From: Candidatus Moraniibacteriota bacterium
GTDB lineage: Bacteria > Patescibacteriota > Minisyncoccia > Moranbacterales > UBA1568
NCBI GenBank assembly: GCA_049303555.1
Contig: JBAQNF010000025.1
Span: 1-43,209 of the forward strand
Direction of reading: 5' to 3'
Length of the DNA: 43,209 bases
The notes under the pieces are model-generated. The model ran no database searches and was not told the origin of the DNA. It worked only from the letters and a program-made list of their open reading frames with translations. A program made the position numbers and the translations under genes. Below are positions 4,594 to 32,328 of the stretch, in pieces (within the stretch, counting starts at the first letter, position 1; each line of letters starts with the position of its first letter).

Positions 4594-5120
4594 GTAAACT
4601 TATTGTTATCTGTGGGCTTCCGGGAAGTGGGAAGACTACTTTGGCGAGCGAGTTATCACGGAGATTGAATATTTTTTGTCTCCACAAGGATTCGGTTAAA
4701 GAATCACTGTTTGAATCACTGAAGCTTTCTACTTTGGAAGACAGTAAAAAAATAGGCTATCCCGCAGTTAAGGTAGCACTTGATTTAGTGGAGGAGAATA
4801 TTGGTCGCGGCATTGATGTCATTTTGGAATCGCCATTCAACTTTCCAGAGGAAGGGAAGCTTTTCGAAGAGTGGAAGGAAAAATACCACATAGATTTTTT
4901 TGCCGTTATTCTTCAGGTTGGTCCGGAAGAACGAAGACGGAGATTCGTCGAACGCGAAAGGCATCGAGCTCATCACGATACTGATCGTTTGAGAATGACG
5001 GGGAACACCCTGGAAGAGACTTGTTCTTACGATCACATCCCAGAGAAAAAACTTTTTCTCGAAACGAACAAGCCAGTCGAAGCTTTGGTTGAGAAAGTTA
5101 TGGAATTCCTTCGTTCATAA
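4590..5120 (+). CDS. P-loop NTPase / predicted kinase (AAA_33-like)
   Basis: Walker A motif GLPGSGKTT at the N-terminus; 176 aa. The start overlaps the ileS stop (ATGA), suggesting translational coupling. Confidence 0.65.
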   Translation: MSKLIVICGLPGSGKTTLASELSRRLNIFCLHKDSVKESLFESLKLSTLEDSKKIGYPAVKVALDLVEENIGRGIDVILESPFNFPEEGKLFEEWKEKYHIDFFAVILQVGPEERRRRFVERERHRAHHDTDRLRMTGNTLEETCSYDHIPEKKLFLETNKPVEALVEKVMEFLRS

Positions 5121-5147
5121 TTCTTATTTCTTGATTCTGTATTCATC
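5120..5147 (+). repeat. ATTCNNN heptad array x4 upstream of recO
   Basis: ATTCTTA TTTCTTG ATTCTGT ATTCATC, then 6 nt (CCAAAA), then ATG at 5154. Confidence 0.85.
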
Positions 5148-5153
5148 CCAAAA

Positions 5154-5876
5154 ATGGAATTGCGCTATAACGCTATCGTGCTGCGAAAGAAAGAGGTTGG
5201 CGAGACGGATCGGCTCTATACGCTGTATACCGAATCGGCCGGCAAGGTTTCGCTTGTGGCCAAAGGCGTAAGGAAGCCCGAAGCCAAACTGGCGGGGCAA
5301 CTCGAGACCCTGATGCAGGGGCTGGTGATCGTCGTGAAGGGGCGCGGCGCCGGCAAGATTGCTGGGGCGGTGGCTGAACAGAGCTTCATTCATTTGCGAA
5401 ACGACCTCGATATTCTGAAGCGAACACTTGAGGCAGTCAGTATTTTCGAACGGCTGATTGGTTGGGAAGAAAAGGATACAGAGCTTTTTGTATTGCTCGG
5501 GAAGTATTTGGAGATTGTGAATGATCTGGCTAAAGAAAAAAAGAAGGACAAAGTGCTCCTCGTAACCGAAGGTTTTCTCTTTCAGCTCTTCGCACATCTC
5601 GGGTATGAGATTGAAACGGGCGTGTGTGTGGTATCGGGCAAGAAGCTTTCCTCCGGTGAACGACACCTCTTTAGCCCAAGTGCTGGAGGAATAGTGCGGA
5701 GTGAGCATGCTCACGAGACGCATGGCGCGCTGCCGGTGAGCGAGAGTGTTATCAAACTGATTCGACTGTTTCTCCATAACAAGCTCGAGGCTCTGCCTAA
5801 GGTGACGGTTCCTGAAAAGGATCTCCGTGAGGCACGCCAAGCCGCCACCAGATTTTTTCAGTGGATTGAAGGGTAG
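5154..5876 (+). CDS. recO: DNA repair protein RecO
   Basis: 240 aa. The N-terminal OB-fold region (AIVLRKKEVGETDRLYTLYTESAGKVSLVAKGVRK) is typical of RecO. Confidence 0.85.
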   Translation: MELRYNAIVLRKKEVGETDRLYTLYTESAGKVSLVAKGVRKPEAKLAGQLETLMQGLVIVVKGRGAGKIAGAVAEQSFIHLRNDLDILKRTLEAVSIFERLIGWEEKDTELFVLLGKYLEIVNDLAKEKKKDKVLLVTEGFLFQLFAHLGYEIETGVCVVSGKKLSSGERHLFSPSAGGIVRSEHAHETHGALPVSESVIKLIRLFLHNKLEALPKVTVPEKDLREARQAATRFFQWIEG

Positions 5877-5932
5877 TTTTTTGCTATACTACGGGCAATA
5901 AGGCTGTTGGGAATCTTCTTTTTGTTTTTCCT

Positions 5933-5963
5933 AAGAAGCTAAAAACTAACCAGCTAAGAAGCT
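5933..5963 (+). repeat. 31-nt family A module upstream of the 5970 CDS
   Basis: AAGAAGCT AAAAACT AACCAGCT AAGAAGCT, then 6 nt (GCCGGT), then ATG at 5970. Matches 901-931. Confidence 0.85.
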
Positions 5964-5969
5964 GCCGGT

Positions 5970-7916
5970 ATGGGACTTGAAGAGCTGAACGAACAATTGC
6001 ACGGCCGCGACTTTCATGTCGATCGGACACGGAGGAACGATACCTTCACACCTGGCAACCAGCCTGACGGTCAGGGGGCGTCAAAATTTCAGAAAACGGA
6101 GAAGTGGAATGAGTCATCTCTGCCCAAGGAATTCATCCTTGCAGAGCCGGTACGTGCCATCATCTCTCCTGACGATGTGACCAAAAAGCGTCGGAAGCTC
6201 ATCGCTTTGGTTTTGGGAGGAATTGCCTGCGTGCTCCTCATTGGTGGGGTGATTTTGAAAATTCGAGCCGGACTGTTCTCGCCGGAAAACATCGTCTTGA
6301 ATATCGCCGGAGGGGGATCGGCCGGCAGTGCCGAGCTTGTGACGTTTGATTTTGAGTATGCCAACAACAACTGGATGGATCTCGAAAATGCCTCGGTCGT
6401 TTTCGAATATCCGGAATCTTTTCATCCAGAAGCATCCTCGAGACTCGAGATTAAGAAGTCGCGAGCTGAAGGCAAGATAGGCACTATCAAGTCCAAGGGT
6501 CAGGGCACTGTGTCGCTCTCGGGAAAATTCTATGGTTCCAAGGGAGACCAGGCCAAGATATATGCCACGCTCCGGTATAGTCCGAGCGCTTTGTCGAGTA
6601 CGTTTGAGAAGCGAGTAGAACACACGGTGGGCATTTCTTCCTCGACACTCTTTTTTGAAATCAATGCTCCACTTGAGCTGGCGTCCGATCAAGAAGCGCA
6701 GTATGAGGTGCGCTACAGAAATGAAGGTGATACAGCGTTTTCCAATCTCAAGATAAAGCTGGAGTATCCAGCCGGATTTGTTTTTACCGATGCGGATACA
6801 CCATCTTCCGGTGACGGTACTGTCTGGGAAGTGGGTACTCTGGCACCGGGGCAAGAAGGGACGCTCGTGGTGCGGGGGAGATTGTCTGGAGCGCGCGATG
6901 AGCAGAAGACTGTTCATGGTGACATCGGGTTCTTTCAGGGTGATGGGAGTTTCCTCTCCTATGGCGAGGGTCAGCGCAAGACGAAAGTGATTGCTTCCCC
7001 ATTTGTGATTCGTCAGACCGTCGAAGGAGCGACAGCAGCGACTATCGATCCGGGCAGAGATCTGCGCTATGCTCTCGAGTATCGTAACGAAGGGAACGTT
7101 GGTATTCGTGATGCTATTATTACCGTTGAACTTGATACGCCGTACCTTGATTTCAGCACACTCCAGTTTGAGGGTGGTATTTTTGGCGCGTATAATCAGG
7201 CGCGCAAAGCTATCTCGTGGAAAGCATCTGATTTCCCGGCGCTCAACCGAGTCGAGCCTGGGCAGTCAGGCAAGGTAGCCTTTTCTATCAAGTCCTATGC
7301 CGCTCCAACCAAGAAAGTGGCCGCTGCTCGTAACCCACTCATCGTGTCGGTGGCCAAGATCGACAGCCCGGATATTCCGGCCATTGTCGGGGTGACCAAG
7401 GTGGTGGCGAGTAACACTCTTTCTGTCAAACTCAATTCCGTGGTGACGAGTACACTGGAAGTGCAATATCAGGATACGGTGATTCCCAATTCTGGTCCGA
7501 CTCCTCCAGTGGTAGGGCAAGAGACTACCTATACCTTTCATCTCGCTCTCGACAATACATCCAATTCACTTCGGGACGCCCGGATGAATATCTTGTTGCC
7601 GACCGGTATCCGCTATACCGGAAATATTGTCGGTGCTGGAGAGAAGACGTTTTTCAATGAACGCACCAATGAACTCGTGTGGGATATGGGCGTGTTTGCT
7701 CCCGAGACACGGCGTGAGATAGTGTTTCAGGTGGGGGTGACTCCAAGTCCGGGAACCCGTGAGAATGATATTATGCTGGTGAGCCAGGCTCTGTTTACAG
7801 GGAAAGATACGTTTACTGAAACAGAGATCCGAGTGATGGAAGGAAAGAAAACAAACGCCGGGCTGGCTCCTTTGGCTGGTGCACCCGCACCTGATGCAGA
7901 GAGCACAAATCAATAA
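5970..7916 (+). CDS. membrane-anchored repeat protein (DUF11/CARDB-like beta-sandwich repeats, tentative)
   Basis: 648 aa. Single N-proximal TM (LIALVLGGIACVLLIGGVILKI). Recurring segments of the form ..YxxxYRNEG(D/N)..(L/I)xIxLExP... Confidence 0.5.
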   Translation: MGLEELNEQLHGRDFHVDRTRRNDTFTPGNQPDGQGASKFQKTEKWNESSLPKEFILAEPVRAIISPDDVTKKRRKLIALVLGGIACVLLIGGVILKIRAGLFSPENIVLNIAGGGSAGSAELVTFDFEYANNNWMDLENASVVFEYPESFHPEASSRLEIKKSRAEGKIGTIKSKGQGTVSLSGKFYGSKGDQAKIYATLRYSPSALSSTFEKRVEHTVGISSSTLFFEINAPLELASDQEAQYEVRYRNEGDTAFSNLKIKLEYPAGFVFTDADTPSSGDGTVWEVGTLAPGQEGTLVVRGRLSGARDEQKTVHGDIGFFQGDGSFLSYGEGQRKTKVIASPFVIRQTVEGATAATIDPGRDLRYALEYRNEGNVGIRDAIITVELDTPYLDFSTLQFEGGIFGAYNQARKAISWKASDFPALNRVEPGQSGKVAFSIKSYAAPTKKVAAARNPLIVSVAKIDSPDIPAIVGVTKVVASNTLSVKLNSVVTSTLEVQYQDTVIPNSGPTPPVVGQETTYTFHLALDNTSNSLRDARMNILLPTGIRYTGNIVGAGEKTFFNERTNELVWDMGVFAPETRREIVFQVGVTPSPGTRENDIMLVSQALFTGKDTFTETEIRVMEGKKTNAGLAPLAGAPAPDAESTNQ

Positions 7917-7927
7917 GCATACTCTTC

Positions 7928-9082
7928 ATGTCACTTTGGAAAACACGCACACAGACCGATCATGGTCGGATCGGTGAAATGATGACGAGAAAGGGGAGTT
8001 TGCAAACTCCCTTTTTTATGCCGGATGCCACGAGGGCCTCGGTACGTGGTCTGACGAGAGAGGACCTGGAAACAGTCGGCGTCGAAGCGTTGGTGGTCAA
8101 TACCTACCACCTCATGCTTCAGCCGGGCGAAGCACTTATTAAGGAAGCCGGAGACATTCATGCCTTTATGGATTGGCAGCGACCAGTTTTGTCTGATTCG
8201 GGTGGCTATCAGGTCTATTCGCTCATTCACAAAAACCCAGACCTTGGACGGATTACCGAGGAAGGAGCAGAGTTTCGCTCGGTACTTGATGGTTCCAAAT
8301 ATCTTCTCACGCCGGAACGCTCTATTCAGATCCAGTTTGATCTCGGAGTGGATATGATGGTGGTGCTCGATGATCCGCGCCCCAATGATGCTTCCGAAGA
8401 AGAAATTGTGAAGGCGGTTGATCGGACACTGCGATGGGCACGACGGTGTCGAGATGAGTATGACGCTCAGGTAAGCGCCCGCGGACTGACCGATGAAAAC
8501 AGACCACTCCTCTTTGGGGTAGTGCAGGGCGGGATGATGGTGTCTGAACGTCAGCGTTGTGCCGAAGGGCTAGTGGCGATCGGGTTTGATGGCTATGGTC
8601 TGGGCGGACGCCATGTCGATATGGAGGGGAAGTTCTTGGGCGAATTGGTGGCAGCTATTGCCTCATTTATTCCAGAAGACAGTATTCGTTTTGCGCTTGG
8701 TGTCGGCACACCGGAAGATATCGTCCGCTGTCACGCGGTGGGCTGGGATATGTTTGACTGCGTCATTCCGACCCGTGAAGGAAGACACGGACGTCTTTTC
8801 CTTTGGAAAAACGAAAACACAAATTTCAAAACACAAAAGCCAAACGAAAGCACGGCTTTACCGGTGGATTTTTATGAAACGATCAATATTAAAAACGAGC
8901 AGTTTACCAGTGATTTCACAGCAGTGGACCCGACGTGTGACTGCACACTGTGTACCAAATATACTCGGGCATATCTGAAACATCTTTTGAAAGTCGGGGA
9001 GCCACTGGCGCTACGCCTTGCTTCAGAGCACAACCTGCGCTTCTATATGCGCCTCATGGAACAGCTGCGCTTACAGAAGTGA
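7928..9082 (+). CDS. tgt: tRNA-guanine transglycosylase family protein (Tgt-like)
   Basis: Motifs seen: TPFFMP, NTYHL, SDSGGYQV, LFGVVQGG, LGVGTPEDI, DMFDCVIPTR, and the Zn motif CDCTLC..YLKHL. The usual FMPVGT is FMPDAT here. An insertion of about 20 aa (KNENTNFKTQKPNESTALP) lies before the Zn site. Confidence 0.8.
   Translation: MSLWKTRTQTDHGRIGEMMTRKGSLQTPFFMPDATRASVRGLTREDLETVGVEALVVNTYHLMLQPGEALIKEAGDIHAFMDWQRPVLSDSGGYQVYSLIHKNPDLGRITEEGAEFRSVLDGSKYLLTPERSIQIQFDLGVDMMVVLDDPRPNDASEEEIVKAVDRTLRWARRCRDEYDAQVSARGLTDENRPLLFGVVQGGMMVSERQRCAEGLVAIGFDGYGLGGRHVDMEGKFLGELVAAIASFIPEDSIRFALGVGTPEDIVRCHAVGWDMFDCVIPTREGRHGRLFLWKNENTNFKTQKPNESTALPVDFYETINIKNEQFTSDFTAVDPTCDCTLCTKYTRAYLKHLLKVGEPLALRLASEHNLRFYMRLMEQLRLQK
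8807..8855 (+). repeat. CA-rich heptad array (family C) embedded in the tgt CDS
   Basis: AAAAACG AAAACAC AAATTTC AAAACAC AAAAGCC AAACGAA AGCACGG. The 18-mer AAAACACAAAAGCCAAAC (8828-8845) is identical to 33141-33158 in the parA-parB spacer. Confidence 0.85.
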
Positions 9083-9578: not shown

Positions 9579-10979
9579 ATGCCAGAAACAAAAAATGATT
9601 TGATGGAAAAAATAGTGTCGCTGTGCAAGCGTCGTGGTTTCGTCTTTCCTTCTTCGGAAATCTACGGTGGCTTTGCTGCGGTCTATGACTTCGGTCCGTA
9701 TGGTGTGGAGCTAGCCAAAAATATCCGAGAAGCCTGGTGGCAGGCTATGGTGCATGATCACGAGAACATTGTCGGTCTCGACAGCGCTATCTTCATGCAT
9801 CCGAAGGTCTGGGAGGCTTCGGGGCACGTCGGGGGATTTTCTGATCCATTGGCTGAGTGCAAAGACTGTCACTCCCGTGTCCGTGTCGACCATCTGCTCG
9901 AAGAGGCCGGCGTTTTCGCCGATGAAAAGATGAGCGAAGCAGAAATCAATGCGTTGTTTACCGAAAACAAAAACAAGATCGTCTGTCCAAAGTGTGGAAA
10001 GAAGAATTTCAGCGAGGCCAAGAGCTTCAATCTTTTGGTACAATCCAACCTTGGAAACTTCACAGGCGATTGGACGAAGGAGCCGACCTATCTGCGCGGT
10101 GAGACGTGTCAGGGTATCTATGTCAATTTCAAAAACGTACTCGATTCCTCTCGGGTGAAAGTGCCGTTTGGTATCGCACAGATCGGCAAAGCGTTTCGCA
10201 ATGAGATCACCGCTCGGCAGTTTATCTTTCGTAAGCGTGAGTTTGAGCAGATGGAGATGCAGTACTTCGTCCATCCGAGCGAGGCAGCAGCAGTATACGA
10301 AGAGTGGCGTGCCAAGCGTTTCCAGTATTATATCGATCTTGGAATCAAACCAGAGAATCTCCGTTGGCACCAGCATGAGAATCTCGTATTTTATGCCAAG
10401 GCCGCGTGGGATATCGAATACAATTTCCCGTTCGGGTTTAAGGAGCTCGAGGGTGTGCACAATCGCAGTGACTACGATCTGACCCAACACACCAAGTTTT
10501 CTGGCACAGATCTCTCCTATCGTGACCCTCAGACCAATGAAAAATACACACCGTGGATTGTGGAAACATCCGTTGGTCTCGACCGGACATTTCTGGCAGT
10601 TATGACTGATGCTTATACCGAAGAAGAAATCGGCAAAGATGGAGAGAGCGATACGCGTATTGTGCTCAAGTTCCCGAAGAAATTGGCGCCGGTGCAGGTG
10701 GCGGTGTTTCCATTGATGAAGAACAAACCGGAGCTGGTAGAAAAAGCGCGGGAAATTTTCGCGGCGCTCAAGAAAGACTTCCGCTGTGAATTTGATGACA
10801 ATGGCAACGTGGGTAAGCGTTACCGCCGCCAGGATGAAATTGGGACACCATATTGCGTGACGGTAGACTTTGATAGTCTGGAAGACGGCGCTGTCACTGT
10901 CCGTGATCGCGACACCATGAAACAAGAACGCGTCGTGGTAAGCGAGTTGCAGAAATATTTCGGAGAGAATCTTAAGTGA
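9579..10979 (+). CDS. glyQS: glycyl-tRNA synthetase (alpha2 dimeric type)
   Basis: The N-terminus MEKIVSLCKRRGFVFPSSEIYGG and class II motifs are typical of GlyQS. The ATG at 9579 is preferred over the TTG at 9564. Confidence 0.93.
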   Translation: MPETKNDLMEKIVSLCKRRGFVFPSSEIYGGFAAVYDFGPYGVELAKNIREAWWQAMVHDHENIVGLDSAIFMHPKVWEASGHVGGFSDPLAECKDCHSRVRVDHLLEEAGVFADEKMSEAEINALFTENKNKIVCPKCGKKNFSEAKSFNLLVQSNLGNFTGDWTKEPTYLRGETCQGIYVNFKNVLDSSRVKVPFGIAQIGKAFRNEITARQFIFRKREFEQMEMQYFVHPSEAAAVYEEWRAKRFQYYIDLGIKPENLRWHQHENLVFYAKAAWDIEYNFPFGFKELEGVHNRSDYDLTQHTKFSGTDLSYRDPQTNEKYTPWIVETSVGLDRTFLAVMTDAYTEEEIGKDGESDTRIVLKFPKKLAPVQVAVFPLMKNKPELVEKAREIFAALKKDFRCEFDDNGNVGKRYRRQDEIGTPYCVTVDFDSLEDGAVTVRDRDTMKQERVVVSELQKYFGENLK

Positions 10980-11765: not shown

Positions 11766-11793
11766 ATTCATTATTCTAAATTCCTGATTCATC
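11766..11793 (+). repeat. ATTCNNN heptad array x4 upstream of the M16 peptidase gene
   Basis: ATTCATT ATTCTAA ATTCCTG ATTCATC, then 7 nt, then ATG at 11801, which is in phase with the array. Confidence 0.85.
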
Positions 11794-13072: not shown

Positions 13073-13098
13073 ATAGGGTTTGTGCCGTCTACCACGAA

Positions 13099-13178
13099 GA
13101 ATCAGGAATCATGAAGTAAGAATTATGATTTCAAAAGAATTTCATTCTTGATTCTCTATTCTTGATTCATAATTCATC
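13099..13178. repeat. inverted heptad arrays: GAATNNN x4 then ATTCNNN x5
   Basis: GAATCAG GAATCAT GAAGTAA GAATTAT (13099-13126), a spacer, then ATTCTTG ATTCTCT ATTCTTG ATTCATA ATTCATC (13144-13178), then 6 nt and ATG at 13185. The arms are imperfectly complementary. The 19-mer GGAATCATGAAGTAAGAAT (13105-13123) recurs at 32223-32241. Confidence 0.85.
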
Positions 13179-19613: not shown

Positions 19614-19642
19614 TTGACCTTTTTCAATTTGATTGATACAAT
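19614..19642 (+). promoter_or_regulatory. promoter-like element (TTGACC-17-TACAAT) upstream of the atp operon
   Basis: TTGACC at 19614-19619, a 17-nt spacer, then TACAAT at 19637-19642. It lies immediately before a terminator hairpin, so its role is ambiguous. Confidence 0.4.
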
Positions 19643-19668
19643 AGAGGCGCTTTATAAGCGCCTTTTTT
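19643..19668 (+). terminator. intrinsic terminator (AGGCGCTT-TAT-AAGCGCCT + T6)
   Basis: 8-bp perfect stem, 3-nt loop and a T6 tract ending at 19668. Confidence 0.7.
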
Positions 19669-21645: not shown

Positions 21646-21682
21646 TAGTGGAGTTTTGAATTTCGAATTTTGTTTCATCAAT

Positions 21683-21710
21683 ATTCTGAATTCTAAATTC
21701 TACATTCTGA
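21683..21710 (+). repeat. ATTCNNN heptad array x4 upstream of atpA
   Basis: ATTCTGA ATTCTAA ATTCTAC ATTCTGA, then 6 nt (AAAAAT), then ATG at 21717. It lies inside a 71-nt intra-operon spacer. Confidence 0.9.
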
Positions 21711-26172: not shown

Positions 26173-28614
26173 ATGAAAAAAGGCTACGATCCGCAGAAAA
26201 TTGAAGGCAAATGGCAGAAGGTCTGGGCCAAACAAGGCCTACCGAAAAAAGCTGGAAAAAAAGGAAAATACTATATCCTGGACATGTTCCCATATCCGTC
26301 GGGGGATGGGCTGCACGTCGGTCACGTGGAGAACTTCACGGCCACTGATATCCTGGCTCGCTTCAAGCGCTTCCAAGGGGCGGATGTACTCCGGCCGATG
26401 GGCTGGGATGCTTTTGGGTTGCCGGCTGAAAATTTTGCGATCAAAACAGGGATTCATCCGAGCAAAAAGACACTGGAATCAATCAAAAATTTCAAGCGCC
26501 AGATGCAGTCGATCGGCCTCTCGTATGACTGGAGTCGTGAGATCAATACCTCGAGTCCGGAGTACTACCGATGGACCCAGTGGATGTTTCTCTTTCTTTA
26601 CAAAAATGGTCTGGCCTACAAGAAAAAAGCCAAGGTCAACTGGTGTGACAAGGATGCGACAGTGCTGGCCAATGAACAGGTGATTGATGGTAAATGTGAT
26701 CGTTGTGGTAGCGTAGTGGTACAAAAGGATCTGGAGCAGTGGTTTTTCAAGATTACTGATTTTGTCGAACCAACCAAAAGTAAAGACGGGAAGAAAGTTT
26801 CCGGACTGCTCTCTGGTCTCGACAAGATCGATTGGCCGGAGTCTACCAAGGCCGCCCAGAAGCACTGGATTGGCCGCTCTGAGGGTGCCGAGGTGGTGTT
26901 CTATGTGGCTGATACCGAAGAGGAGATACGGGTGTTTACGACCCGTTTGGACACGATCTATGGGTGTACGTATGTGGTAGTAGCGCCAGAGCACGAACTC
27001 GTGAAGAAGCTCGAATCACACATCTCGAATCTGGCTGAAGTCAAAAAATATCTGACTGTCACCAAAAAGAAAACGGATCTCGAACGCACGGAGCTGAACA
27101 AGGAAAAGACGGGCGTGTGTCTGCAGGGGATCGAAGTGGTACATCCGTTCACAGGCGAGCGCCTGCCGGTCTATGCGGCTGATTACGTACTGGCCACCTA
27201 TGGTACTGGTGCGGTCATGGGCGTGCCCGCCCACGACGAACGCGATTTTGCTTTTGCGAAGAAATATCAACTCGAGATACTCGAAGTCATACAAGGTGCT
27301 GAAACAAACAATGGAGAAAATCCATATACGGATGACGGCAGACTAATCTCATCGAAAGAATTTTCTGGACTGACGTCAGAAGAAGCGCGGGAGAAAATGG
27401 TGGCTTGGCTACGGAAAGAAAAACTAGGGAAGAAAGTGGTGAACTACCGCCTGCGTGACTGGCTCATTTCTCGCCAGCGCTACTGGGGGGCACCCATTCC
27501 GATTATCTACTGTGACGACTGTGGGGCAGTTCCAGTACCGGACAAAGATCTGCCGGTGAAACTTCCAACCGATGTAGACTTCCGCCCGACCGGGGAATCA
27601 CCACTGGTGCGTTCCAAGAGTTTCCATAAAGTGAAGTGTCCGCAGTGTGGGGCAAAAGCCAGACGAGAGAGCGACACCATGGATACGTTCGTCTGTTCGA
27701 GCTGGTACTACTTACGCTTTGCTGATCCGCAAAATACCAAACAGTTTGCTTCGAAAAAAGCTCTGGCTAAATATCTGCCTGTAGATTTCTATATGGGCGG
27801 AGCCGAGCACACGGTGCTGCATCTTCTCTATGCTCGTTTTTTCACCAAGGCACTCATGAAGCATGGGTATCTTGGCTTTGATGAGCCGTTTCAGAAGCTC
27901 CGTCACCAGGGGATGATTTTGGCGCAGGATGGTCAGAAGATGTCTAAGTCCAAGGGCAATGTGGTCAACCCGGACCAGGTAGTGGCTGAGTTTGGGGCGG
28001 ATAGCCTGCGCCTCTATGAGATGTTTATGGGCCCGCTCGAAGACATGAAGGCCTGGAATACCGGGAGCATCATCGGGGTCCGTCGGTTTCTCGAAAAAGT
28101 ATGGAAACTTTCCGAGCGAAGCATGAATTCTGAAACAGGAAGCAAGAATAAGAACATCGAAGGTCTCTTACACCAGACCATCAAAAAAGTTACTGAAGAC
28201 TTGGAGGGGTTGAAATTCAATACCGCTATCAGTGCTTTGATGATTTTGGTAAATGCAATGGAGCGGGAGTCCATACTTCATGCGTCATACATCAAGATTC
28301 TGCTTGTCTTGCTCAGCCCGTTCGCTCCACATATCACGGAAGAGCTGTGGGTAAACTTAGGTGAAAAGAAATCTATTTTTCTCGCGCCGTGGCCACAGTA
28401 TGACAAGAAAAAAATCGTAGCAGAGACGGTCAATGTGGCGGTGCAGGTCAATGGCAAAGTACGCGCCGTACTCCCTATCGCTACTGGTACTAGTGAGGAT
28501 GATGTGAAGGCAGAGGCGCTGGCTGATGTCAATGTGCAAACACACCTCGCTGGCAAGACCGTCCGAAAAGTTATCTACGTCCCAGGAAAAATCGTCAGCA
28601 TCGTCGCTGCCTAG
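26173..28614 (+). CDS. leuS: leucyl-tRNA synthetase
   Basis: FPYPSGDGLHVGH (HIGH) and KMSKSKGN (KMSKS); 813 aa. Confidence 0.96.
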   Translation: MKKGYDPQKIEGKWQKVWAKQGLPKKAGKKGKYYILDMFPYPSGDGLHVGHVENFTATDILARFKRFQGADVLRPMGWDAFGLPAENFAIKTGIHPSKKTLESIKNFKRQMQSIGLSYDWSREINTSSPEYYRWTQWMFLFLYKNGLAYKKKAKVNWCDKDATVLANEQVIDGKCDRCGSVVVQKDLEQWFFKITDFVEPTKSKDGKKVSGLLSGLDKIDWPESTKAAQKHWIGRSEGAEVVFYVADTEEEIRVFTTRLDTIYGCTYVVVAPEHELVKKLESHISNLAEVKKYLTVTKKKTDLERTELNKEKTGVCLQGIEVVHPFTGERLPVYAADYVLATYGTGAVMGVPAHDERDFAFAKKYQLEILEVIQGAETNNGENPYTDDGRLISSKEFSGLTSEEAREKMVAWLRKEKLGKKVVNYRLRDWLISRQRYWGAPIPIIYCDDCGAVPVPDKDLPVKLPTDVDFRPTGESPLVRSKSFHKVKCPQCGAKARRESDTMDTFVCSSWYYLRFADPQNTKQFASKKALAKYLPVDFYMGGAEHTVLHLLYARFFTKALMKHGYLGFDEPFQKLRHQGMILAQDGQKMSKSKGNVVNPDQVVAEFGADSLRLYEMFMGPLEDMKAWNTGSIIGVRRFLEKVWKLSERSMNSETGSKNKNIEGLLHQTIKKVTEDLEGLKFNTAISALMILVNAMERESILHASYIKILLVLLSPFAPHITEELWVNLGEKKSIFLAPWPQYDKKKIVAETVNVAVQVNGKVRAVLPIATGTSEDDVKAEALADVNVQTHLAGKTVRKVIYVPGKIVSIVAA

Positions 28615-28626
28615 TTTCTTTATTGT

Positions 28627-28654
28627 GTCATCCCGGGCTTGACCCGGGATCCAG
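28627..28654 (+). repeat. left hairpin repeat of the GIY-YIG cassette
   Basis: 8-bp perfect stem ATCCCGGG/CCCGGGAT with loop CTTGA. Confidence 0.9.
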
Positions 28655-28657
28655 AAA

Positions 28658-28948
28658 ATGAAAACGTATTACGTGTATATTTTGGCGAGTCAAAGAAACG
28701 GCACGCTCTATGTCGGTGTAACATCCGACTTACTCAAACGTATCTGGGAGCATAAGAATAAAAAAGTAAAAGGCTTTACTGAAAAGTATGGAGTCGATAT
28801 GTTGGTATATTTCGAAGAAACGAATGACGTGCGATCGGCTCTCGAGAGAGAAAAGATTTTAAAAAAATGGAGAAGGGCTTGGAAACTTGAGTTGATTGAA
28901 AAAGAAAATCCAGAGTGGAAAGATCTGTATGAGAAGATGATTACTTAA
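28658..28948 (+). CDS. GIY-YIG (URI-domain) nuclease family protein
   Basis: YYVYILASQRNGTLYVGVTSDLLKRIWEH...EREKILKKW matches the small stand-alone GIY-YIG (YhbQ/COG2827-like) pattern. Confidence 0.85.
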   Translation: MKTYYVYILASQRNGTLYVGVTSDLLKRIWEHKNKKVKGFTEKYGVDMLVYFEETNDVRSALEREKILKKWRRAWKLELIEKENPEWKDLYEKMIT

Positions 28949-28949
28949 C

Positions 28950-28978
28950 CTGGATCCCGGCTCAGAGGCCGGGATGAC
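28950..28978 (+). repeat. right hairpin repeat of the GIY-YIG cassette
   Basis: 8-bp perfect stem ATCCCGGC/GCCGGGAT with loop TCAGAG. Relative to the left copy, the innermost stem pair is changed on both strands, so pairing is preserved. Confidence 0.9.
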
Positions 28979-29048
28979 AGAGGTGGTCGAGCAAGAAAAA
29001 AGCCCCGGCGCGGTGCGCAGGGGCGGGTGGTGGTTGGGCGGCGGTTCG

Positions 29049-29294
29049 CTAGCGCTTGAGCGCCGCGAGGATCCGCAGAACGACCGTCCCAGTCAGCCAG
29101 CCGGAGATGGTCAGCATCACCAAGGAAATCAGAATGGGAGCCTTGTAGGCATCAGGCGTTTGAACCAGGGTGGCGGTCCAGGTCATGATAGACATGCCGA
29201 AGCTGATCACAGCGCCCATAGTGAGGAGCGCTACTGTAGAGGTATCCATCTGATCCTCTGCTTGGTCGGGGATGTCCGTTGATTGGTTGGTCAT
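29049..29294 (-). CDS. small two-TM membrane protein (81 aa)
   Basis: Hydrophobic segments VALLTMGAVISFGMSIM and ILISLVMLTISGWLTGTVVL. The leader is homologous to that of the upstream small gene. A terminator-like GC hairpin plus T-tract follows the stop, near 28995-29025 on the minus strand. Confidence 0.55.
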   Translation of the reverse strand: MTNQSTDIPDQAEDQMDTSTVALLTMGAVISFGMSIMTWTATLVQTPDAYKAPILISLVMLTISGWLTGTVVLRILAALKR

Positions 29295-29348
29295 GGGTAA
29301 CCCTTTCAGGGTGGTTGGGGATGAGGGCGTGCCGAAGCACGGTGGGGG

Positions 29349-29519
29349 TTAGGACGTTTTCTTGGGGAAGGCGTAGGCGATGTGGCCACTACCAACAAAC
29401 ATCACGATGAAGCCAATCAGTGGACCCCAGCTTCCTGGCTTGGAGATGCCAGTTACGATGGCGGTAGTTATGCCAGATGAAAGCAGCAGAATCCCAAGGG
29501 CAAGTCGGAAGCGACTCAT
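29349..29519 (-). CDS. small two-TM membrane protein (56 aa from the second Met)
   Basis: MSRFRLALGILLLSSGITTAIV...LIGFIVMFVGSGHIAYAF. AAGGA lies about 7 nt upstream of the ATG at 29519. The ORF track extends the ORF to 29552. Confidence 0.55.
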   Translation of the reverse strand: MSRFRLALGILLLSSGITTAIVTGISKPGSWGPLIGFIVMFVGSGHIAYAFPKKTS

Positions 29520-29580
29520 GATGAATCCTTTCGTGGTTGTGTGCCGAGGCACGGGGTTGTTAAGGCACTGGTAACGTTCT

Positions 29581-29609
29581 ATTGTAGCATAAAACTAAGA
29601 AAAAGTCAA
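29581..29609 (-). promoter_or_regulatory. near-consensus promoter (TTGACT-17-TACAAT) on the minus strand
   Basis: The reverse complement of 29581-29609 reads TTGACT ttttcttagttttatgc TACAAT, upstream of the tandem small membrane genes. Confidence 0.65.
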
Positions 29610-29690
29610 TAGCACGTAAAAAAGGTGTGGAATGAAATGAAGGAATAGGTTAGAATGGGTAATATCCTCAAGAAATAATGCTTTTTTACT

Positions 29691-30362
29691 ATGCGTTCTA
29701 CCATTGCTGACTATCTGCCGCTTGATCGACCGCTGATTATTTTCGATCTCGAAACGACTGGGCTGGCGCATGGTGAAGACAAGATCGTCGAGCTGGCTTA
29801 TGAAAAAATCATGCCCAATGGTGAGGTGATCTCGTATTGTCAGCGGATTGATCCTGGGATGCCGATGCCGGCTGATGCCAGTAGTATCAATGGCATTTAT
29901 GACAAAGATCTGGTCGGTTGTCCGAGCTTTGCCAAACTCTCCTACGAGCTGTGGAATATGTTTGACGGATCGGATGTCGGCGGATTCAACATCACGGGGT
30001 TTGATCTGCCGTTTTTGCGGGGTGAATTTTCAAGCGTTGGGAAAAATTTTGATTTTACCAAAAAGAAAGTACTGGATGCCAAGATTCTCTATCACAAGAT
30101 GACGGCCAAGAATATGTTTGCTCCGCGCAATCTCTCGGCCGCTTACAAATTGTATTTTGGCAAAGAACACACGACAGCGCATACCGGTGCGGGTGACGTG
30201 CGGGTGACGGTAGAGATTCTCGAGAAGCAGTTGGAGCAGTATCCGGAGTTTCGGAATTGGGAATATCTAGCCGAGCTTCATGGGAACAAAAAACTGCTTG
30301 AATCAGCCAAAACAGAGCATGCACCGCTGGTAGAATCTAAGCCAGTCGGAACATTATTTTAG
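29691..30362 (+). CDS. DEDDh 3'-5' exonuclease (DnaQ/epsilon-like domain)
   Basis: ExoI motif IIFDLETTGL, ExoII-like NITGFDLPFL, and ExoIII HTAHTGAGDV. Confidence 0.8.
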   Translation: MRSTIADYLPLDRPLIIFDLETTGLAHGEDKIVELAYEKIMPNGEVISYCQRIDPGMPMPADASSINGIYDKDLVGCPSFAKLSYELWNMFDGSDVGGFNITGFDLPFLRGEFSSVGKNFDFTKKKVLDAKILYHKMTAKNMFAPRNLSAAYKLYFGKEHTTAHTGAGDVRVTVEILEKQLEQYPEFRNWEYLAELHGNKKLLESAKTEHAPLVESKPVGTLF

Positions 30363-30365
30363 ACT

Positions 30366-31133
30366 ATGAATTTTACAGATGCTCTCATTTTAGGTGTTGT
30401 GGAGGGATTGACGGAATTTTTTCCGATATCTTCAACCGGCCATTTGATATTGGCGGCGGAACTTTTGAAGTTGCCAGAGACAGAATTTCTCAAGACATTT
30501 CAGATCGCTATCCAGCTTGGCGCCATCCTGGCTATTGTCGCCATATATTGGCACCGGCTTTTGTTTGATCGAGAAATGATCAAGCGTCTCATCGTGGCGC
30601 TCATCCCAGCTCTCGGTATCGGCTTTCTTTTTTATAAGGCCATCAAGGGACTCTTTGAATCGAGCTTGGTCGTGGTGGTGGCTCTGTTTGTGGGTGGTGT
30701 TATCCTTATTGTCTTTGAGTGGTGGTATCAGAAAACCGAACGGGTGACGACTGAACTTGATGCGATGGATTACAAAACAGCCTTCTTCATCGGACTTTTT
30801 CAGACGCTCTCGGTTATTCCCGGTGTTTCGCGAGCAGGGGCGACGCTTCTTGGCGGACTATTTCTGGGGATGAGTCGTACCGCGATTGTAGAGTTTTCAT
30901 TTTTGCTTGCCGTACCGACCATGGTAGCGGCCACGACGCTCGATATCTGGAAAAATGCCGGAGCCTTTTCTTCCAATGATTTTTCATTGCTTTTGGTTGG
31001 CTTTGTGACAGCTTTTTTCGTGGCTTTGGCAGCGGTGAAGTTTCTCCTGCGTTTTGTGGAAACGCATACATTTATCGCTTTTGGCGTGTATCGGATGATT
31101 CTGGCAGCACTCTTTTTTCTCTTTATACTCTAG
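30366..31133 (+). CDS. uppP: undecaprenyl-diphosphate phosphatase
   Basis: GVVEGLTEFFPISSTGHL and the PGVSRAGAT motif are typical of UppP/BacA. Confidence 0.92.
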   Translation: MNFTDALILGVVEGLTEFFPISSTGHLILAAELLKLPETEFLKTFQIAIQLGAILAIVAIYWHRLLFDREMIKRLIVALIPALGIGFLFYKAIKGLFESSLVVVVALFVGGVILIVFEWWYQKTERVTTELDAMDYKTAFFIGLFQTLSVIPGVSRAGATLLGGLFLGMSRTAIVEFSFLLAVPTMVAATTLDIWKNAGAFSSNDFSLLLVGFVTAFFVALAAVKFLLRFVETHTFIAFGVYRMILAALFFLFIL

Positions 31134-31137
31134 TTTT

Positions 31138-31971
31138 ATGGCGCTTTTGTACGGCAAACCAATTGCAGAGAGAATCCTTTCAGACGTGAAGGATCGTATT
31201 GAAGGTATGGATACCGCGCCAGGACTGGCGGTGGTGCTGGTCGGTGACTCTGTCGAGTCACACAAGTATGTCGGGTTGAAAGAAGAACGCGCGGGGGAAG
31301 TAGGGATTCATTTTGAGAAGTATCTTTTTCCCAAGGAGGTAGACTGCCAAGAAATATTCCGATGCATCGAGATGCTCAATACCAAGAGTGATATCCATGG
31401 CATCATCGTGCAGCTGCCGCTTCCGGAGGGTTTTCCGACGGATGAGATTATCGCTCACATTGATCCGAAGAAAGATACAGATGGATTTCACGCGGATACG
31501 ATTCGGAAGTTTCTGGCGGGGGATTTTTCCTGTTGTCCGGTGTTTCCCCGTGCTATTGTGGACCTCATCCGGGAAACGAAAGAGACTTTTCATGGTGAAA
31601 AAGCGGTGGTGGTCGCAAATTCAGACTTGATGGGGAAGGTGATGGCGTTTACACTGTCACTGGAGGGATTGGAGAGCGGTTATATCCTCAGTTCGGAAGG
31701 TCGTGAAGCGATTGCTCGAAAAACACAAGAGGCCAGAGTAGTCGTGACCGCCTGTGGTATTCTGGACCTTCTGACGGCTGATATGCTCTCGTCAGAGGCT
31801 ATCGTTATCGATGGTGGTACTGTCCGGGTGAACGGCAAGGTACAGGGAGATGTGAAACAGGAAGAGGTGGAAAAGAAAGTGGCGTTTCTGTCGCCAGTAC
31901 CGGGCGGTGTCGGACCGGTGACGGTAGCGACGCTGCTGGCTCGAGTGACGGATGCTGCTCTGAAAAATTAA
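31138..31971 (+). CDS. folD: bifunctional methylenetetrahydrofolate dehydrogenase/cyclohydrolase
   Basis: LAVVLVGDSVESHKYV, HGIIVQLPLP, KDTDGFH and PVPGGVGPVT motifs. Confidence 0.92.
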   Translation: MALLYGKPIAERILSDVKDRIEGMDTAPGLAVVLVGDSVESHKYVGLKEERAGEVGIHFEKYLFPKEVDCQEIFRCIEMLNTKSDIHGIIVQLPLPEGFPTDEIIAHIDPKKDTDGFHADTIRKFLAGDFSCCPVFPRAIVDLIRETKETFHGEKAVVVANSDLMGKVMAFTLSLEGLESGYILSSEGREAIARKTQEARVVVTACGILDLLTADMLSSEAIVIDGGTVRVNGKVQGDVKQEEVEKKVAFLSPVPGGVGPVTVATLLARVTDAALKN

Positions 31972-32000
31972 AAATATCAAGGTCTGACCTTGATATTTTT
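31972..32000. terminator. bidirectional intrinsic terminator between folD and tRNA-Leu
   Basis: AAATATCAAGG-TCTGA-CCTTGATATTT hairpin, flanked by an A-run on the 5' side and a T-run on the 3' side. Confidence 0.8.
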
Positions 32001-32042
32001 GCTGAGAATAGGAAAGAGATGGCGCGTGAGAGAGCTCTATGT

Positions 32043-32128
32043 TGGTGCCGAGGGAGGGACTTGAACCCTCATGATATTGCTATCGCGGGATTTTGAGTCC
32101 CGTGTGTCTACCATTCCACCACCTCGGC
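32043..32128 (-). tRNA. tRNA-Leu (anticodon CAA), type II with long variable arm, CCA encoded
   Basis: The reverse complement folds as follows: acceptor GCCGAGG/CCTCGGC; D-arm GTGG-AATGGTAGA-CAC; anticodon stem CGGGA/TCCCG with loop CTCAAAA; a 16-nt variable arm; T-arm GAGGG-TTCAAGT-CCCTC; then ACCA. Confidence 0.93.
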
Positions 32129-32174
32129 AATTTTCCTTTATTGTAGCCAATTGTCTGAAAGAGGCATAGAGACA

Positions 32175-32203
32175 GGATAGAAAATTGATAATCATTTGTC
32201 AAT
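32175..32203 (+). promoter_or_regulatory. near-consensus promoter (TTGATA-17-TATAAT) for parA
   Basis: Hexamers at 32175-32180 and 32198-32203 with a 17-nt spacer. Confidence 0.65.
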
Positions 32204-32223
32204 GGACTATAATGGTTGAAGAG

Positions 32224-32328
32224 GAATCATGAAGTAAGAATCAGGAATCATGGTCAGAGACTATGACTATATTCTGGTGCTTCTTTCGTCTTGATTCATA
32301 AGTCTTGATTCTGTATTCACGCAAGAAA
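32224..32328. repeat. 15 phased heptads (105 nt) forming the parA 5' leader
   Basis: GAATCAT GAAGTAA GAATCAG GAATCAT GGTCAGA GACTATG ACTATAT TCTGGTG CTTCTTT CGTCTTG ATTCATA AGTCTTG ATTCTGT ATTCACG CAAGAAA, then ATG at 32329. The two halves are imperfectly complementary. Confidence 0.85.

What the first reader, a model, noticed from the sequence alone, without database searches (positions are those of the whole stretch)
5120..32328. ATTCNNN heptad arrays ending 6-7 nt before five unrelated start codons
Five genes each carry 4-5 tandem 7-nt units with an ATTC core directly upstream of the ATG:
- recO: 5120-5147
- M16 peptidase: 11766-11793
- AI-2E permease: 13144-13178
- atpA: 21683-21710
- parA: 32294-32321

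The last unit is ATTCATC in three cases, and the gap to the ATG is always 6 or 7 nt, the position normally taken by a Shine-Dalgarno sequence. None of these five genes has a recognisable GGAGG-type SD. A 7-nt period fits neither codon phase nor the DNA helical repeat. I do not recognise this as a described leader element.

Candidate roles:
- (a) a binding platform on the mRNA for an oligomeric RNA-binding protein or a translation enhancer;
- (b) DNA operator arrays of the kind bound cooperatively by ribbon-helix-helix proteins (established precedent: the pSM19035 omega repressor binds arrays of WATCACW heptads);
- (c) scars of a small mobile repeat that prefers gene-proximal sites.
Basis: seen in the sequence. 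Interest (0 to 1): 0.78.

Follow-up and report, generated by a model that had tools for sequence, protein, structure and literature searches.

The report
Heptad-repeat spacers before start codons
The five ATTC arrays are real: they belong to a fast-changing class of 7-base tandem repeats, often folded into hairpins, that fills the short gaps between genes in this uncultured Moranbacteria lineage and resembles the poorly understood heptamer repeats of cyanobacteria.

Summary
Five + strand ATTCNNN arrays of 4-5 units end 6-7 nt before ATG (7 pattern hits against 0.02 expected).

The arrays are not a special leader for these five genes. The window comes from a Candidatus Moranbacteria (Patescibacteria) genome that lacks Shine-Dalgarno sequences everywhere. 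Its intergenic DNA, and that of close relatives, carries a lag-7/14/21 periodicity that coding DNA lacks. ATTC is one of at least eight unit families.

Three of the five arrays (AI-2E, atpA, parA) are the 3' arm of an imperfect stem-loop whose 5' arm is a GAATNNN array. In all families the periodicity stops sharply at -7.

Orthologous spacers in relatives carry another family or none. Strains 96-98% identical have swapped whole spacers.

The closest known things are cyanobacterial STRR heptamer hairpins and the TAACTGA repeats of Beggiatoaceae; neither has a known function.

My best reading is that these are transcribed, rapidly replaced repeat modules: a stem-loop followed by an unpaired AU-rich landing pad for SD-independent initiation. 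A sequence-specific DNA operator is unlikely. An oligomeric RNA-binding platform is not excluded.

The parts
5113..5147 (+). recO leader array: GTTCATA ATTCTTA TTTCTTG ATTCTGT ATTCATC. It has no 5' arm. The first unit overlaps the stop codon of the upstream kinase-like gene (4590-5120).
   Evidence: fold z = +0.8, no hairpin; last core 13 nt before ATG 5154
11766..11793 (+). M16 peptidase leader array of four exact ATTC cores, with no 5' arm.
   Evidence: z = +1.3; last core 14 nt before ATG 11801
13096..13130 (+). 5' arm of the AI-2E spacer hairpin. It reads as GAATNNN-type units (GAAGAAT CAGGAAT CATGAAG TAAGAAT TATGATT) and is the reverse complement of an ATTC array.
   Evidence: (I2, I14); shares a 19-mer with the parA 5' arm
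13144..13178 (+). 3' arm and unpaired tail of the AI-2E spacer: five exact ATTC units ending 6 nt before ATG 13185.
   Evidence: z = -1.7; 3' tail of 16 nt unpaired
21648..21668 (+). 5' arm of the atpH-atpA hairpin (GTGGAGT TTTGAAT TTCGAAT). It starts 2 nt after the atpH stop codon.
   Evidence: z = -3.9; 0 of 200 shuffles fold as well; sense -19.3 vs antisense -9.2 kcal/mol
21683..21710 (+). 3' arm and unpaired tail of the atpH-atpA hairpin: four exact ATTCT units ending 6 nt before ATG 21717.
   Evidence: (structure kept in L003 and L004 with 1 compensatory and 6 wobble changes)
32185..32213 (+). Sigma-70-like promoter TTGATA-17-TATAAT (11 of 12 matches) directly upstream of the parA hairpin. 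It implies that the hairpin is the 5' UTR.
   Evidence: a consensus match only, not proof of function
32221..32248 (+). 5' arm of the parA leader hairpin (GAGGAAT CATGAAG TAAGAAT CAGGAAT).
   Evidence: z = -2.0; sense -30.9 vs antisense -22.0
32294..32321 (+). 3' arm and tail of the parA leader, ending 7 nt before ATG 32329. It shares the exact 17-mer TCTTGATTCTGTATTCA with the recO array.
861..934 (+). Hairpin spacer of another family: AGCTAGT units on the 5' side and CTAAAAAG/CTAAGAAG units on the 3' side.
   Evidence: A related copy lies at 5927-5963 (D19, 16), but that spacer does not fold better than chance (z = -0.3)
33124..33250 (+). parA-parB spacer hairpin of another family. The AAAACAC-type 5' arm starts 3 nt after the parA stop. 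The GTGTTTT/ATTTGAA-type 3' arm ends about 7 nt before ATG 33257.
   Evidence: (z = -2.1)
34220..34316 (+). Spacer of the same AAAAC/GTTTTG family, with a weaker hairpin.
   Evidence: (z = -2.5)

Best explanation
The five arrays are one sub-family (ATTC/GAAT) of a lineage-wide class of heptanucleotide short tandem repeats. These repeats build much of the intergenic spacer DNA in this Candidatus Moranbacteria genome and its relatives.

Shown:
- The repeats are intergenic and 7-periodic, and they come in at least eight unit families.
- They often occur as an inverted pair. The resulting imperfect stem-loop starts a few nt after the upstream stop codon, or after a promoter for parA. It leaves roughly 13-17 nt unpaired before the ATG.
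- In every family the periodicity stops at -7.
- The lineage has no SD but has its own start context in the last six bases (A at -6/-5, T at -1).
- The modules are replaced or lost between relatives, even between strains 96-98% identical.

Inferred:
- The units arise by slippage in 7-nt steps and are copied between spacers.
- They are transcribed.
- On the mRNA they act as sequence-tolerant structured spacers. The stem-loop stabilises or insulates the transcript and brings the stop and the next start close together. The non-self-complementary AU-rich repeat tail gives a structure-free landing pad for SD-independent initiation.
- The constant 6-7 nt gap mainly marks the edge of the constrained start context. 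It is probably not the spacing of a dedicated recognition element.
For: Lineage-wide periodicity:
- Intergenic DNA peaks at lags 7, 14 and 21 (0.318, 0.304 and 0.292 against a baseline of about 0.275). Coding DNA shows no such peaks.
- The signal is present in the window, L001-L006, L010-L011 and L201-L202. It is absent from other Patescibacteria and from Campylobacterota.
- There are 53 period-7 arrays in 24.4 kb of spacer against 23 in 250 kb of coding DNA, about 24-fold. Spacers hold only 2-10 arrays for periods 5, 6, 8 and 9.
- Many unit families occur.

Hairpins:
- Folds of the three ATTC hairpin spacers give z from -1.7 to -3.9; the heptad-rich spacers as a whole give z mostly -1.2 to -4.4, with one at +0.6.
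- The atpA hairpin is kept in three species with 1 compensatory and 6 wobble changes.
- Its sense strand folds much better than its antisense strand.

Boundary and start context:
- The match s[i]=s[i-7] is 0.6-0.8 from -31 to -7, then falls to 0.48 and 0.14 at -6 and -5. This covers 21 genes in 6 genomes.
- T at -1 occurs in 73% of starts, A at -6 in 51%, and an SD-like motif in 8 of 166.

Transcription:
- A promoter-like site lies upstream of the parA hairpin.
- In L201 and L202 a TAGAAT -10-like box that I read by eye in the spacer sequences lies upstream of the arrays in the glmS leader (no promoter scan was run on these loci).

Turnover:
- Orthologous M16, AI-2E, atpA and atpG spacers differ in family or lack arrays.
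- L201 and L202-L204 have identical flanks but different modules at five spacers.

Copying between loci:
- Arrays at different loci share exact 17-19-mers: 90 shared 12-mers against 0.9 expected.

Literature:
- Seven-bp STRR repeats form hairpins between cyanobacterial cistrons. Proposed roles are transcript stability or translational coupling (PMC2670836).
Against: - No expression data exist, so transcription, folding in vivo and any effect on stability or translation are all inferred.
- Two of the five arrays (recO, M16) have no partner arm and fold no better than shuffles.
- Sense versus antisense folding is mixed over 14 spacers. Nine clearly favour the sense strand and five are equal or reversed.
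- ATTC arrays next to a start have their last core 12-14 nt before ATG in 8 of 8 cases. This is tighter than a simple boundary model predicts and hints at a real spacing requirement.
- Why the unit length is 7, and how whole spacers are replaced, remain unexplained.
- A stem-loop this close to a start codon could inhibit initiation rather than help it.
Confidence: 0.5

Rival explanations
1. RNA platform for an oligomeric RNA-binding protein or for ribosomal protein S1. Each subunit or domain reads one short core at 7-nt spacing, as HutP reads XAG plus a 4-nt spacer. The protein delivers or withholds the 30S subunit at a fixed distance from the ATG. The upstream GAAT arm would act as an anti-platform.
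For: - The units have a conserved 4-nt core and 3 free positions.
- The last core is 12-14 nt before ATG in 8 of 8 start-proximal ATTC arrays, in four genomes and eight genes.
- The arrays lie in transcribed leaders.
- HutP is a precedent for a 7-nt RNA period with sequence-independent spacers (PMC2425495).
- S1, Csp and CsrA have been proposed for TAACTGA repeats (PMC4679880).
Against: - At least eight different cores occupy the same position with the same -7 boundary.
- The same leader carries ATTC in one strain and CTAA in a strain 97% identical.
- Arrays are absent from many orthologous leaders.
- No candidate RNA-binding protein was found among the 31 window products examined.
- In the wider metagenome set, ATTC arrays show no orientation bias towards ORF starts.
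Confidence: 0.15
2. A selfish, MITE- or REPIN-like palindromic element family that inserts into spacers. It is tolerated only where it leaves the start context intact and has no host function.
For: - The AI-2E and parA elements share both arms (a 19-mer and a 13-mer), and recO and parA share a 17-mer.
- A near-identical arm lies at a non-orthologous spacer in L001.
- Spacers show presence/absence and replacement between close strains.
- An AAAACAC-type array sits in frame inside tgt.
- The inverted pairs have a fixed arm order, 26 to 1.
- An IS200-like Y1 transposase lies in the window.
Against: - Copies within one genome are only 63-70% alike over 57 nt (D4).
- No target-site duplication or conserved termini were seen.
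- Filled and empty spacers share no flanking remnant, so the whole spacer is replaced rather than interrupted.
- The transposase-like gene is flanked by a different palindrome.
- Two of the five arrays are not palindromic.
- The atpA hairpin has persisted, with structure-preserving changes, across three species.
Confidence: 0.25
3. DNA operator arrays bound cooperatively by a ribbon-helix-helix or similar repressor, as omega binds WATCACW heptads.
For: - Heptad units occur in direct and convergent orientation.
- Divergent pairs are nearly absent (26 to 1). From my own knowledge, this recalls the orientation preference of omega.
- In some metagenome pairs only the 4-bp cores are complementary.
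Against: - There are no WATCACW units.
- No RHH gene was found among the 31 window products examined.
- The arrays lie inside operons or downstream of the promoter rather than over it.
- There are many unrelated unit families.
- The targets are housekeeping genes with no common theme.
- G-U wobble changes keep the atpA hairpin, which makes sense only for RNA.
Confidence: 0.04
4. The arrays are sigma-70 promoters for leaderless or short-leader transcripts, with TTGATT as -35 and TATTCA or TAATTC as -10.
For: The arrays contain TTGATT and TA-rich hexamers close to the ATG.
Against: - No promoter-like match overlaps any array, whereas good TTGAC-17-TATAAT sites exist elsewhere.
- The start-aligned profile shows no -10 box at -12 to -7.
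- Three arrays lie inside operons.
Confidence: 0.03

Closest known systems
STRR (short tandemly repeated repetitive) heptamer sequences of filamentous cyanobacteria
   Same: - Tandem 7-bp units in intergenic regions, with several unit families.
- They can form hairpins between cistrons, for example hupS-hupL.
- Their function is unknown, with transcript stability or translational coupling proposed (PMC2670836).
   Different: - This lineage is Patescibacteria, not cyanobacteria.
- The units here are degenerate (a 4-nt core plus 3 free positions), not near-exact.
- The sharp -7 boundary was shown here; I do not know it to have been reported for STRR.
TAACTGA heptamer direct repeats of marine Beggiatoaceae, some cyanobacteria and Bacteroidetes (MacGregor 2015, PMC4679880)
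   Same: - Two to six forward-oriented heptamers lie directly upstream of start codons that mostly lack an RBS.
- The downstream genes are unrelated and include housekeeping genes.
- A translational role has been proposed but not tested.
   Different: - The unit there is a single exact heptamer. TAACTGA is absent here.
- Those arrays most often end 1 nt before the start, not 6-7 nt.
- Inverted pairs are almost absent there (1 of 170 sets).
Heptanucleotide long simple sequence repeats (Mrazek et al. 2007, as summarised in PMC4679880) and Nostoc TTTTGAA/TTCAAAA repeats near start codons (bioRxiv 10.1101/2022.06.06.494920)
   Same: - Heptamers are the most abundant class of 5-11 nt repeat in many prokaryotes.
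- Polymerase slippage has been proposed as their origin.
- In Nostoc they cluster near start codons and promoters.
   Different: In the strains compared here, variation is by replacement of the whole module rather than by changes in unit number.
REP/BIME/REPIN and other small intergenic palindromic repeats
   Same: - Dispersed imperfect palindromes lie between co-directional genes.
- They show presence/absence between strains.
- A role in mRNA stabilisation is known for REP (from my own knowledge).
   Different: - The heptad substructure.
- Low identity between copies.
- The RAYT-like gene in the window is flanked by a different palindrome.
HutP- and TRAP-type RNA arrays
   Same: A short core plus a sequence-independent spacer. 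For HutP the period is exactly 7 nt (XAG plus 4 nt, three times per site; PMC2425495).
   Different: - No cognate protein has been identified.
- Many different cores occur.
- There is no conservation at orthologous leaders.
Omega (pSM19035) WATCACW operator heptads and ToxR/H-NS TTTTGAT heptads at ctxAB
   Same: DNA heptads in tandem upstream of genes.
   Different: - The unit sequences differ.
- The arrays here lie within transcribed leaders or operons, not at promoters.
- No repressor gene was found among the 31 window products examined.

Membership tests
Heptanucleotide intergenic tandem repeats (STRR / LSSR kind) | Head-to-tail units of 7 nt, three or more copies | tested here: met
   TRF period 7, 3.6-4.1 copies, 68-89% matches.
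Heptanucleotide intergenic tandem repeats (STRR / LSSR kind) | Concentrated in non-coding DNA | tested here: met
   2.17 arrays per kb in spacers against 0.092 per kb in coding DNA; the lag-7 peak appears only in intergenic DNA.
Heptanucleotide intergenic tandem repeats (STRR / LSSR kind) | Several unit families in one genome or lineage | tested here: met
   ATTC, CTAA, AAAACAC, AATTTCT, CAATTTA, AAACCCT, GTATAnn, CTAAGAAG and others.
Heptanucleotide intergenic tandem repeats (STRR / LSSR kind) | Hairpin-forming inverted arrays between cistrons | tested here: met
   Three of the five ATTC sites, plus spacers of other families. recO and M16 have no partner arm.
Heptanucleotide intergenic tandem repeats (STRR / LSSR kind) | Near-exact repetition of one heptamer (classical STRR1-3) | tested here: not met
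   Only a 4-nt core is constant and the 3 other positions vary.
STRR in the narrow sense | Found in heterocystous cyanobacteria | tested here: not met
   The nearest atpA relatives are Candidatus Moranbacteria MAGs.
TAACTGA repeats | Unit TAACTGA | tested here: not met
   0 matches, even with 2 mismatches allowed.
TAACTGA repeats | Forward orientation just upstream of starts that lack an RBS | tested here: met
   The offset differs: -7 here, mostly -1 there.
Omega-type RHH operator arrays | WATCACW heptads | tested here: not met
   0 matches against 3.2 expected.
Omega-type RHH operator arrays | Cognate ribbon-helix-helix repressor | tested here: not met
   None among the 31 window products examined (30 scanned against Pfam, plus atpA). 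The rest of the genome was not available.
Omega-type RHH operator arrays | Arrays overlap promoters | tested here: not met
   No promoter-like site overlaps an array. The parA array lies downstream of the best promoter match.
HutP/TRAP-type RNA platform | Short conserved core, free spacer, fixed period | tested here: met
   ATTC plus NNN.
HutP/TRAP-type RNA platform | Cognate oligomeric RNA-binding protein | not testable with these tools
   None in the window. Testing needs the whole genome and biochemistry.
HutP/TRAP-type RNA platform | Site conserved with the regulated gene | tested here: not met
   Orthologous leaders carry other families or no array.
REP/REPIN or MITE | Dispersed copies with shared sequence | tested here: inconclusive
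   Exact 17-19-mers are shared, but overall identity is only 63-70%.
REP/REPIN or MITE | Flanks a RAYT gene (REP), or has terminal inverted repeats plus a target-site duplication (MITE) | tested here: not met
   The Y1-transposase-like ORF is flanked by a different palindrome. No target-site duplication was seen at filled versus empty sites.
Shine-Dalgarno-like element | Complementarity to the 16S rRNA 3' tail | not testable with these tools
   There is no rRNA gene in the window or in the fetched loci.

The most novel reading that the evidence does not exclude
In this SD-less Patescibacteria lineage the 7-nt periodic arrays are a true substitute for the Shine-Dalgarno sequence. A periodic, largely sequence-degenerate platform ending at -7 would be read by a multi-domain or oligomeric RNA-binding factor (S1-like, Csp-like or unknown), which places the 30S subunit on the start codon. 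The complementary upstream arm would act as an anti-platform, opened by the ribosome terminating on the preceding cistron. That would couple translation along operons.
Probability: 0.12. Interest if true: 0.8.

Novelty: new variant of a known kind. Interest (0 to 1): 0.55.

Why it matters
Heptamer tandem repeats next to bacterial start codons and between cistrons have been known since about 1990 (STRR) and were rediscovered in 2015 (TAACTGA). They still have no demonstrated function.

This case extends them to the Candidate Phyla Radiation, where genomes are small and spacers short, so non-coding DNA is unlikely to be idle. It adds three handles that make the question more testable:
- a sharp boundary at -7 shared by all unit families in a lineage without SD sequences;
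- a stop-to-start hairpin layout;
- replacement of whole spacers between strains 96-98% identical.

Together these point either to an unusual mutational process or to a structural role in SD-independent translation that does not depend on sequence.

A practical point for annotation: these arrays should not be mistaken for operators, promoters or CRISPR-like arrays in MAGs.

Tried and rejected
- **Promoter or leaderless reading.** No sigma-70-like match overlaps an array, and the start-aligned profile has no -10 box at -12 to -7.
- **Known RNA families.** Rfam at gathering thresholds finds only tRNA-Leu.
- **Omega and TAACTGA units.** Both are absent.
- **Source genome.** An exact look-up of the window's atpA found nothing.
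- **Literature search by repeat strings.** Only irrelevant hits. A search on candidate phyla radiation with palindromic and intergenic repeats returned TIGR-Tas papers. I did not pursue these because, from my recollection, their array units are much longer than 7 nt.
- **Orientation of ATTC arrays towards ORF starts in the broad metagenome set.** No bias, 53 against 61. Start-proximity is therefore a property of the compact Moranbacteria spacers, not of ATTC arrays in general.
- **Link to the RAYT-like gene in the window.** Its flanking palindrome is unrelated to the heptads, and a strict pattern for it matched none of the fetched loci.
- **Canonical terminators.** The lineage has ordinary GC-stem plus T-run terminators elsewhere, and the heptad hairpins lack them.
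- **G-poor composition as the common property.** Rejected, because purine-rich and G/T-rich arrays also abut starts.

Full report
**1. The observation**

- recO: 5120-5147, with a degenerate extra unit from 5113 that overlaps the upstream stop codon.
- M16 peptidase: 11766-11793.
- AI-2E permease: 13144-13178.
- atpA: 21683-21710.
- parA: 32294-32321.

The gaps to ATG are 6, 7, 6, 6 and 7 nt. The parA ATG is at 32329. Three arrays end in ATTCATC. Pfam confirms the gene names.

ATTCN3ATTCN3ATTC occurs 7 times, against 0.02 expected from dinucleotide shuffles.

**2.

Reverse-complement arrays (GAATNNN on the + strand) lie 15-45 nt upstream of three of the five arrays. They are at 13096-13130, 21648-21668 and 32221-32248.

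As RNA, these three spacers fold into long imperfect stem-loops.
- atpA: z = -3.9, and 0 of 200 shuffles fold as well.
- parA: z = -2.0.
- AI-2E: z = -1.7.
- recO and M16 have no partner arm and fold no better than chance.

Other spacers carry period-7 or period-8 arrays of quite different sequence, again often as inverted pairs:
- 861-934 (AGCTAGT / CTAAAAAG);
- 5927-5963, which has CTAAGAAG units but no significant fold (z = -0.3);
- 33124-33250 (AAAACAC / GTGTTTT, ATTTGAA);
- 34220-34316.

None of the 39 starts I listed in the window has a GGAGG-type SD.

**3. Organism and relatives**

The atpA product is 93-96% identical to proteins from uncultured Candidatus Moranbacteria (Patescibacteria/CPR).
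- A genome scan returned nine close relatives (L001-L009, 82-94% atpA identity) that are syntenic with window positions 11.7-33 kb, plus more distant Patescibacteria.
- Two look-ups added L201-L204. These contigs are 96-98% identical to each other at the DNA level and about 80% identical to the window.

**4. Heptad periodicity is a property of the lineage's spacers**

In 19 kb of intergenic DNA from the window and relatives, the self-match at lags 7, 14 and 21 is 0.318, 0.304 and 0.292. The baseline is about 0.275. Coding DNA shows only the period of 3.
- In the window alone z = 7.2. With the five ATTC spacers removed it is still z = 4.0.
- The signal is present in the window, L001-L006, L010-L011 and L201-L202. 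It is absent from the other Patescibacteria (L012-L019) and from Campylobacterota.
- Period-7 arrays number 53 in 24.4 kb of spacer against 23 in 250 kb of coding DNA, about 24-fold. Spacers hold only 2-10 arrays for periods 5, 6, 8 and 9.
- Unit families include ATTC/GAAT, CTAA, AAAACAC/GTGTTTT, AATTTCT/GAAAATT, CAATTTA/AAATTG, AAACCCT, GTATAnn, TCTAATT and others.

**5. The start context and the -7 boundary**

SD-like motifs occur in only 8 of 166 starts. Instead, T at -1 occurs in 73% and A at -6 in 51%. Lack of SD is therefore lineage-wide.

Twenty-one starts in six genomes have a period-7 array of any family upstream. For these, the match s[i]=s[i-7] stays at 0.6-0.8 from -31 to -7. It then collapses to 0.48 and 0.14 at -6 and -5.

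For the ATTC family, the last core lies 12-14 nt before ATG in 8 of 8 start-proximal arrays: five in the window, one in L010, one in L201 and one in L202.

I read it mainly as the edge of the constrained start context. The ATTC spacing is tighter than that alone predicts.

**6. Layout of the hairpin spacers**

In heptad-rich spacers the outermost helix usually begins 0-6 nt after the upstream stop codon and most often leaves about 13-17 nt unpaired before the ATG (range 8-28). Fold z-scores are mostly -1.2 to -4.4, with one spacer at +0.6.

The atpH-atpA hairpin is retained in the window, L003 and L004, which share about 80% DNA identity.
- It shows one compensatory change and six one-sided G-U/A-U changes.
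- Two pairs each break in one of the three sequences.
- Its sense strand folds at -19.3 kcal/mol and its antisense strand at -9.2.

Over 14 spacers the sense strand is clearly better in 9 and equal or worse in 5. RNA-level selection is therefore suggested, not proven.

The best promoter match in the second half of the window is TTGATA-17-TATAAT at 32185-32213, which ends 7 nt before the parA hairpin. The hairpin is therefore probably the 5' UTR. No promoter-like site overlaps any array.

**7. Turnover**

Orthologous spacers are not conserved.
- The M16 leader is ATTC in the window, AAACCCT in L005 and an ACAATTT hairpin in L011. L007-L009 have no array.
- The atpA leader is an ATTC hairpin in the window, L003 and L004. 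It is a CTAA array in L001 and L201-L203, and AAACCCT in L006 and L009. L002, L005 and L008 have none.
- The atpA-atpG spacer is 3 nt long in the window. It holds hairpins of three different families in L002, L005 and L201/L202.

L201 and L202-L204 are 96-98% identical, yet they differ at five spacers.
- Their atpA-atpG, atpF-atpH, glmS-leader and RNase T-leader spacers carry different modules.
- The atpE-atpF spacer is 109 nt in L201 and 12 nt in L203.
- The flanks are identical, and there is no unit-number variation among L202-L204.

Within the window, arrays at different loci share exact 17-19-mers. That amounts to 90 shared 12-mers against 0.9 expected. Some copying between spacers therefore occurs.

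**8. The wider distribution**

The pattern ATTCTNN x3 + ATTC hits at least 120 metagenome contigs with GC from 0.30 to 0.71. It also hits at least 120 viral contigs.
- In that broad set there is no orientation bias towards ORF starts.
- Inverted pairs are almost always GAAT arm first and ATTC arm second, 26 to 1.
- Some pairs have arms complementary only at the core, and many have a GC-rich hairpin between the arms.
- I cannot explain this asymmetry. Derivation from A-tract / hairpin / T-tract terminators is one untested idea.

**9. Comparison with what is known**

Seven-bp STRR repeats form hairpins between cyanobacterial cistrons. Their function is unknown, with transcript stability or translational coupling suggested (PMC2670836).

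TAACTGA heptamers lie in forward orientation just upstream of RBS-less starts in Beggiatoaceae. S1, Csp and CsrA have been proposed as readers (PMC4679880). The same paper summarises the finding of Mrazek and colleagues that heptamers are the commonest long simple repeats, and their polymerase-slippage idea.

Nostoc has heptamers near start codons (bioRxiv 10.1101/2022.06.06.494920). HutP reads XAG plus a 4-nt spacer, an established 7-nt RNA period (PMC2425495).

The present case shares the kind. It differs in four ways:
- the lineage (CPR);
- the degenerate core-plus-spacer units;
- the many families sharing one -7 boundary;
- whole-module replacement between near-identical strains.

I found no description of this in Patescibacteria.

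**10. Verdict**

The arrays are real, non-random and biologically structured. They are not a dedicated leader for five genes and are very unlikely to be a sequence-specific DNA operator.

I commit to the reading that they are transcribed, rapidly replaced heptad-repeat modules. Each is a stem-loop plus an unpaired AU-rich tail that stops at the start context of an SD-less lineage (confidence 0.5).

The main rivals are a selfish palindromic repeat (0.25) and an oligomeric RNA-binding platform (0.15).

The classification is a new variant of a known but functionally unexplained kind. Interest is moderate, 0.55.

Noticed in passing
window 37845-38567: ORF 37886-38533 has an IS200-like Y1 transposase domain (PF01797, E = 2.9e-8). 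It is bracketed by perfect 31-nt inverted repeats, each holding the imperfect palindrome TACAGCGGTTCAACCCCTGTA. A third copy lies inside the ORF at 38057-38082. A similar palindrome sits in a spacer of L202. The layout looks like a RAYT/REP system and is unrelated in sequence to the heptads.
   Followed up: partly
window 8806-8875 (inside tgt, 7928-9082): An AAAACAC-type heptad array lies in frame inside the queuine tRNA-ribosyltransferase gene. It corresponds to an insertion of about 22 residues (295-318) relative to solved TGT structures. This resembles palindromic-element insertions into genes.
   Followed up: partly
all starts in the window and in L001-L009: The lineage-wide start context is T at -1 in 73% of starts, A at -6 in 51% and C at -2 in 33%. 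An SD-like motif occurs in only 8 of 166 starts.
   Followed up: partly
L201 versus L202-L204 (atpA-atpG, atpF-atpH, atpE-atpF, glmS leader, RNase T leader): Contigs 96-98% identical carry entirely different heptad modules at the same spacers, or none, with identical flanks. Whole spacers are replaced; units are not gained or lost.
   Followed up: yes
metagenome loci L081-L200 and viral loci L205 onward (highest id seen L313): Inverted ATTC/GAAT heptad pairs are almost always GAAT arm first and ATTC arm second (26 to 1). Some match only at the 4-nt core, and many have a GC-rich hairpin between the arms. This is unexplained.
   Followed up: partly
window 19614-19665: A promoter-like site TTGACC-17-TACAAT is followed immediately by a GC hairpin and a T run, just upstream of the atp operon. 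The same arrangement is conserved in L201 and L203. It may be an attenuator or a very short transcript.
   Followed up: no
L003 about 7105-7124; L201 about 9959-9974 (also L202, L203): Short GC-rich perfect palindromes (CCTGCCTGCCGGCAGGCAGG; TCCGCCAACTGGCGGA) are inserted inside heptad arrays of relatives. In L201 the insertion lies between two identical CTAATCC units.
   Followed up: no
window 28630-28975: A small GIY-YIG nuclease-domain ORF (28658-28948) lies between short GC-rich palindromes (cccgggcttgacccggg and similar). It may be a mobile or homing-type element.
   Followed up: no
window 34335-37832 and 41990-43170: A long ORF contains five internal repeats of about 690 nt. Related repeated Gly/Thr-rich coding segments lie on the minus strand near the window end.
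   Followed up: no
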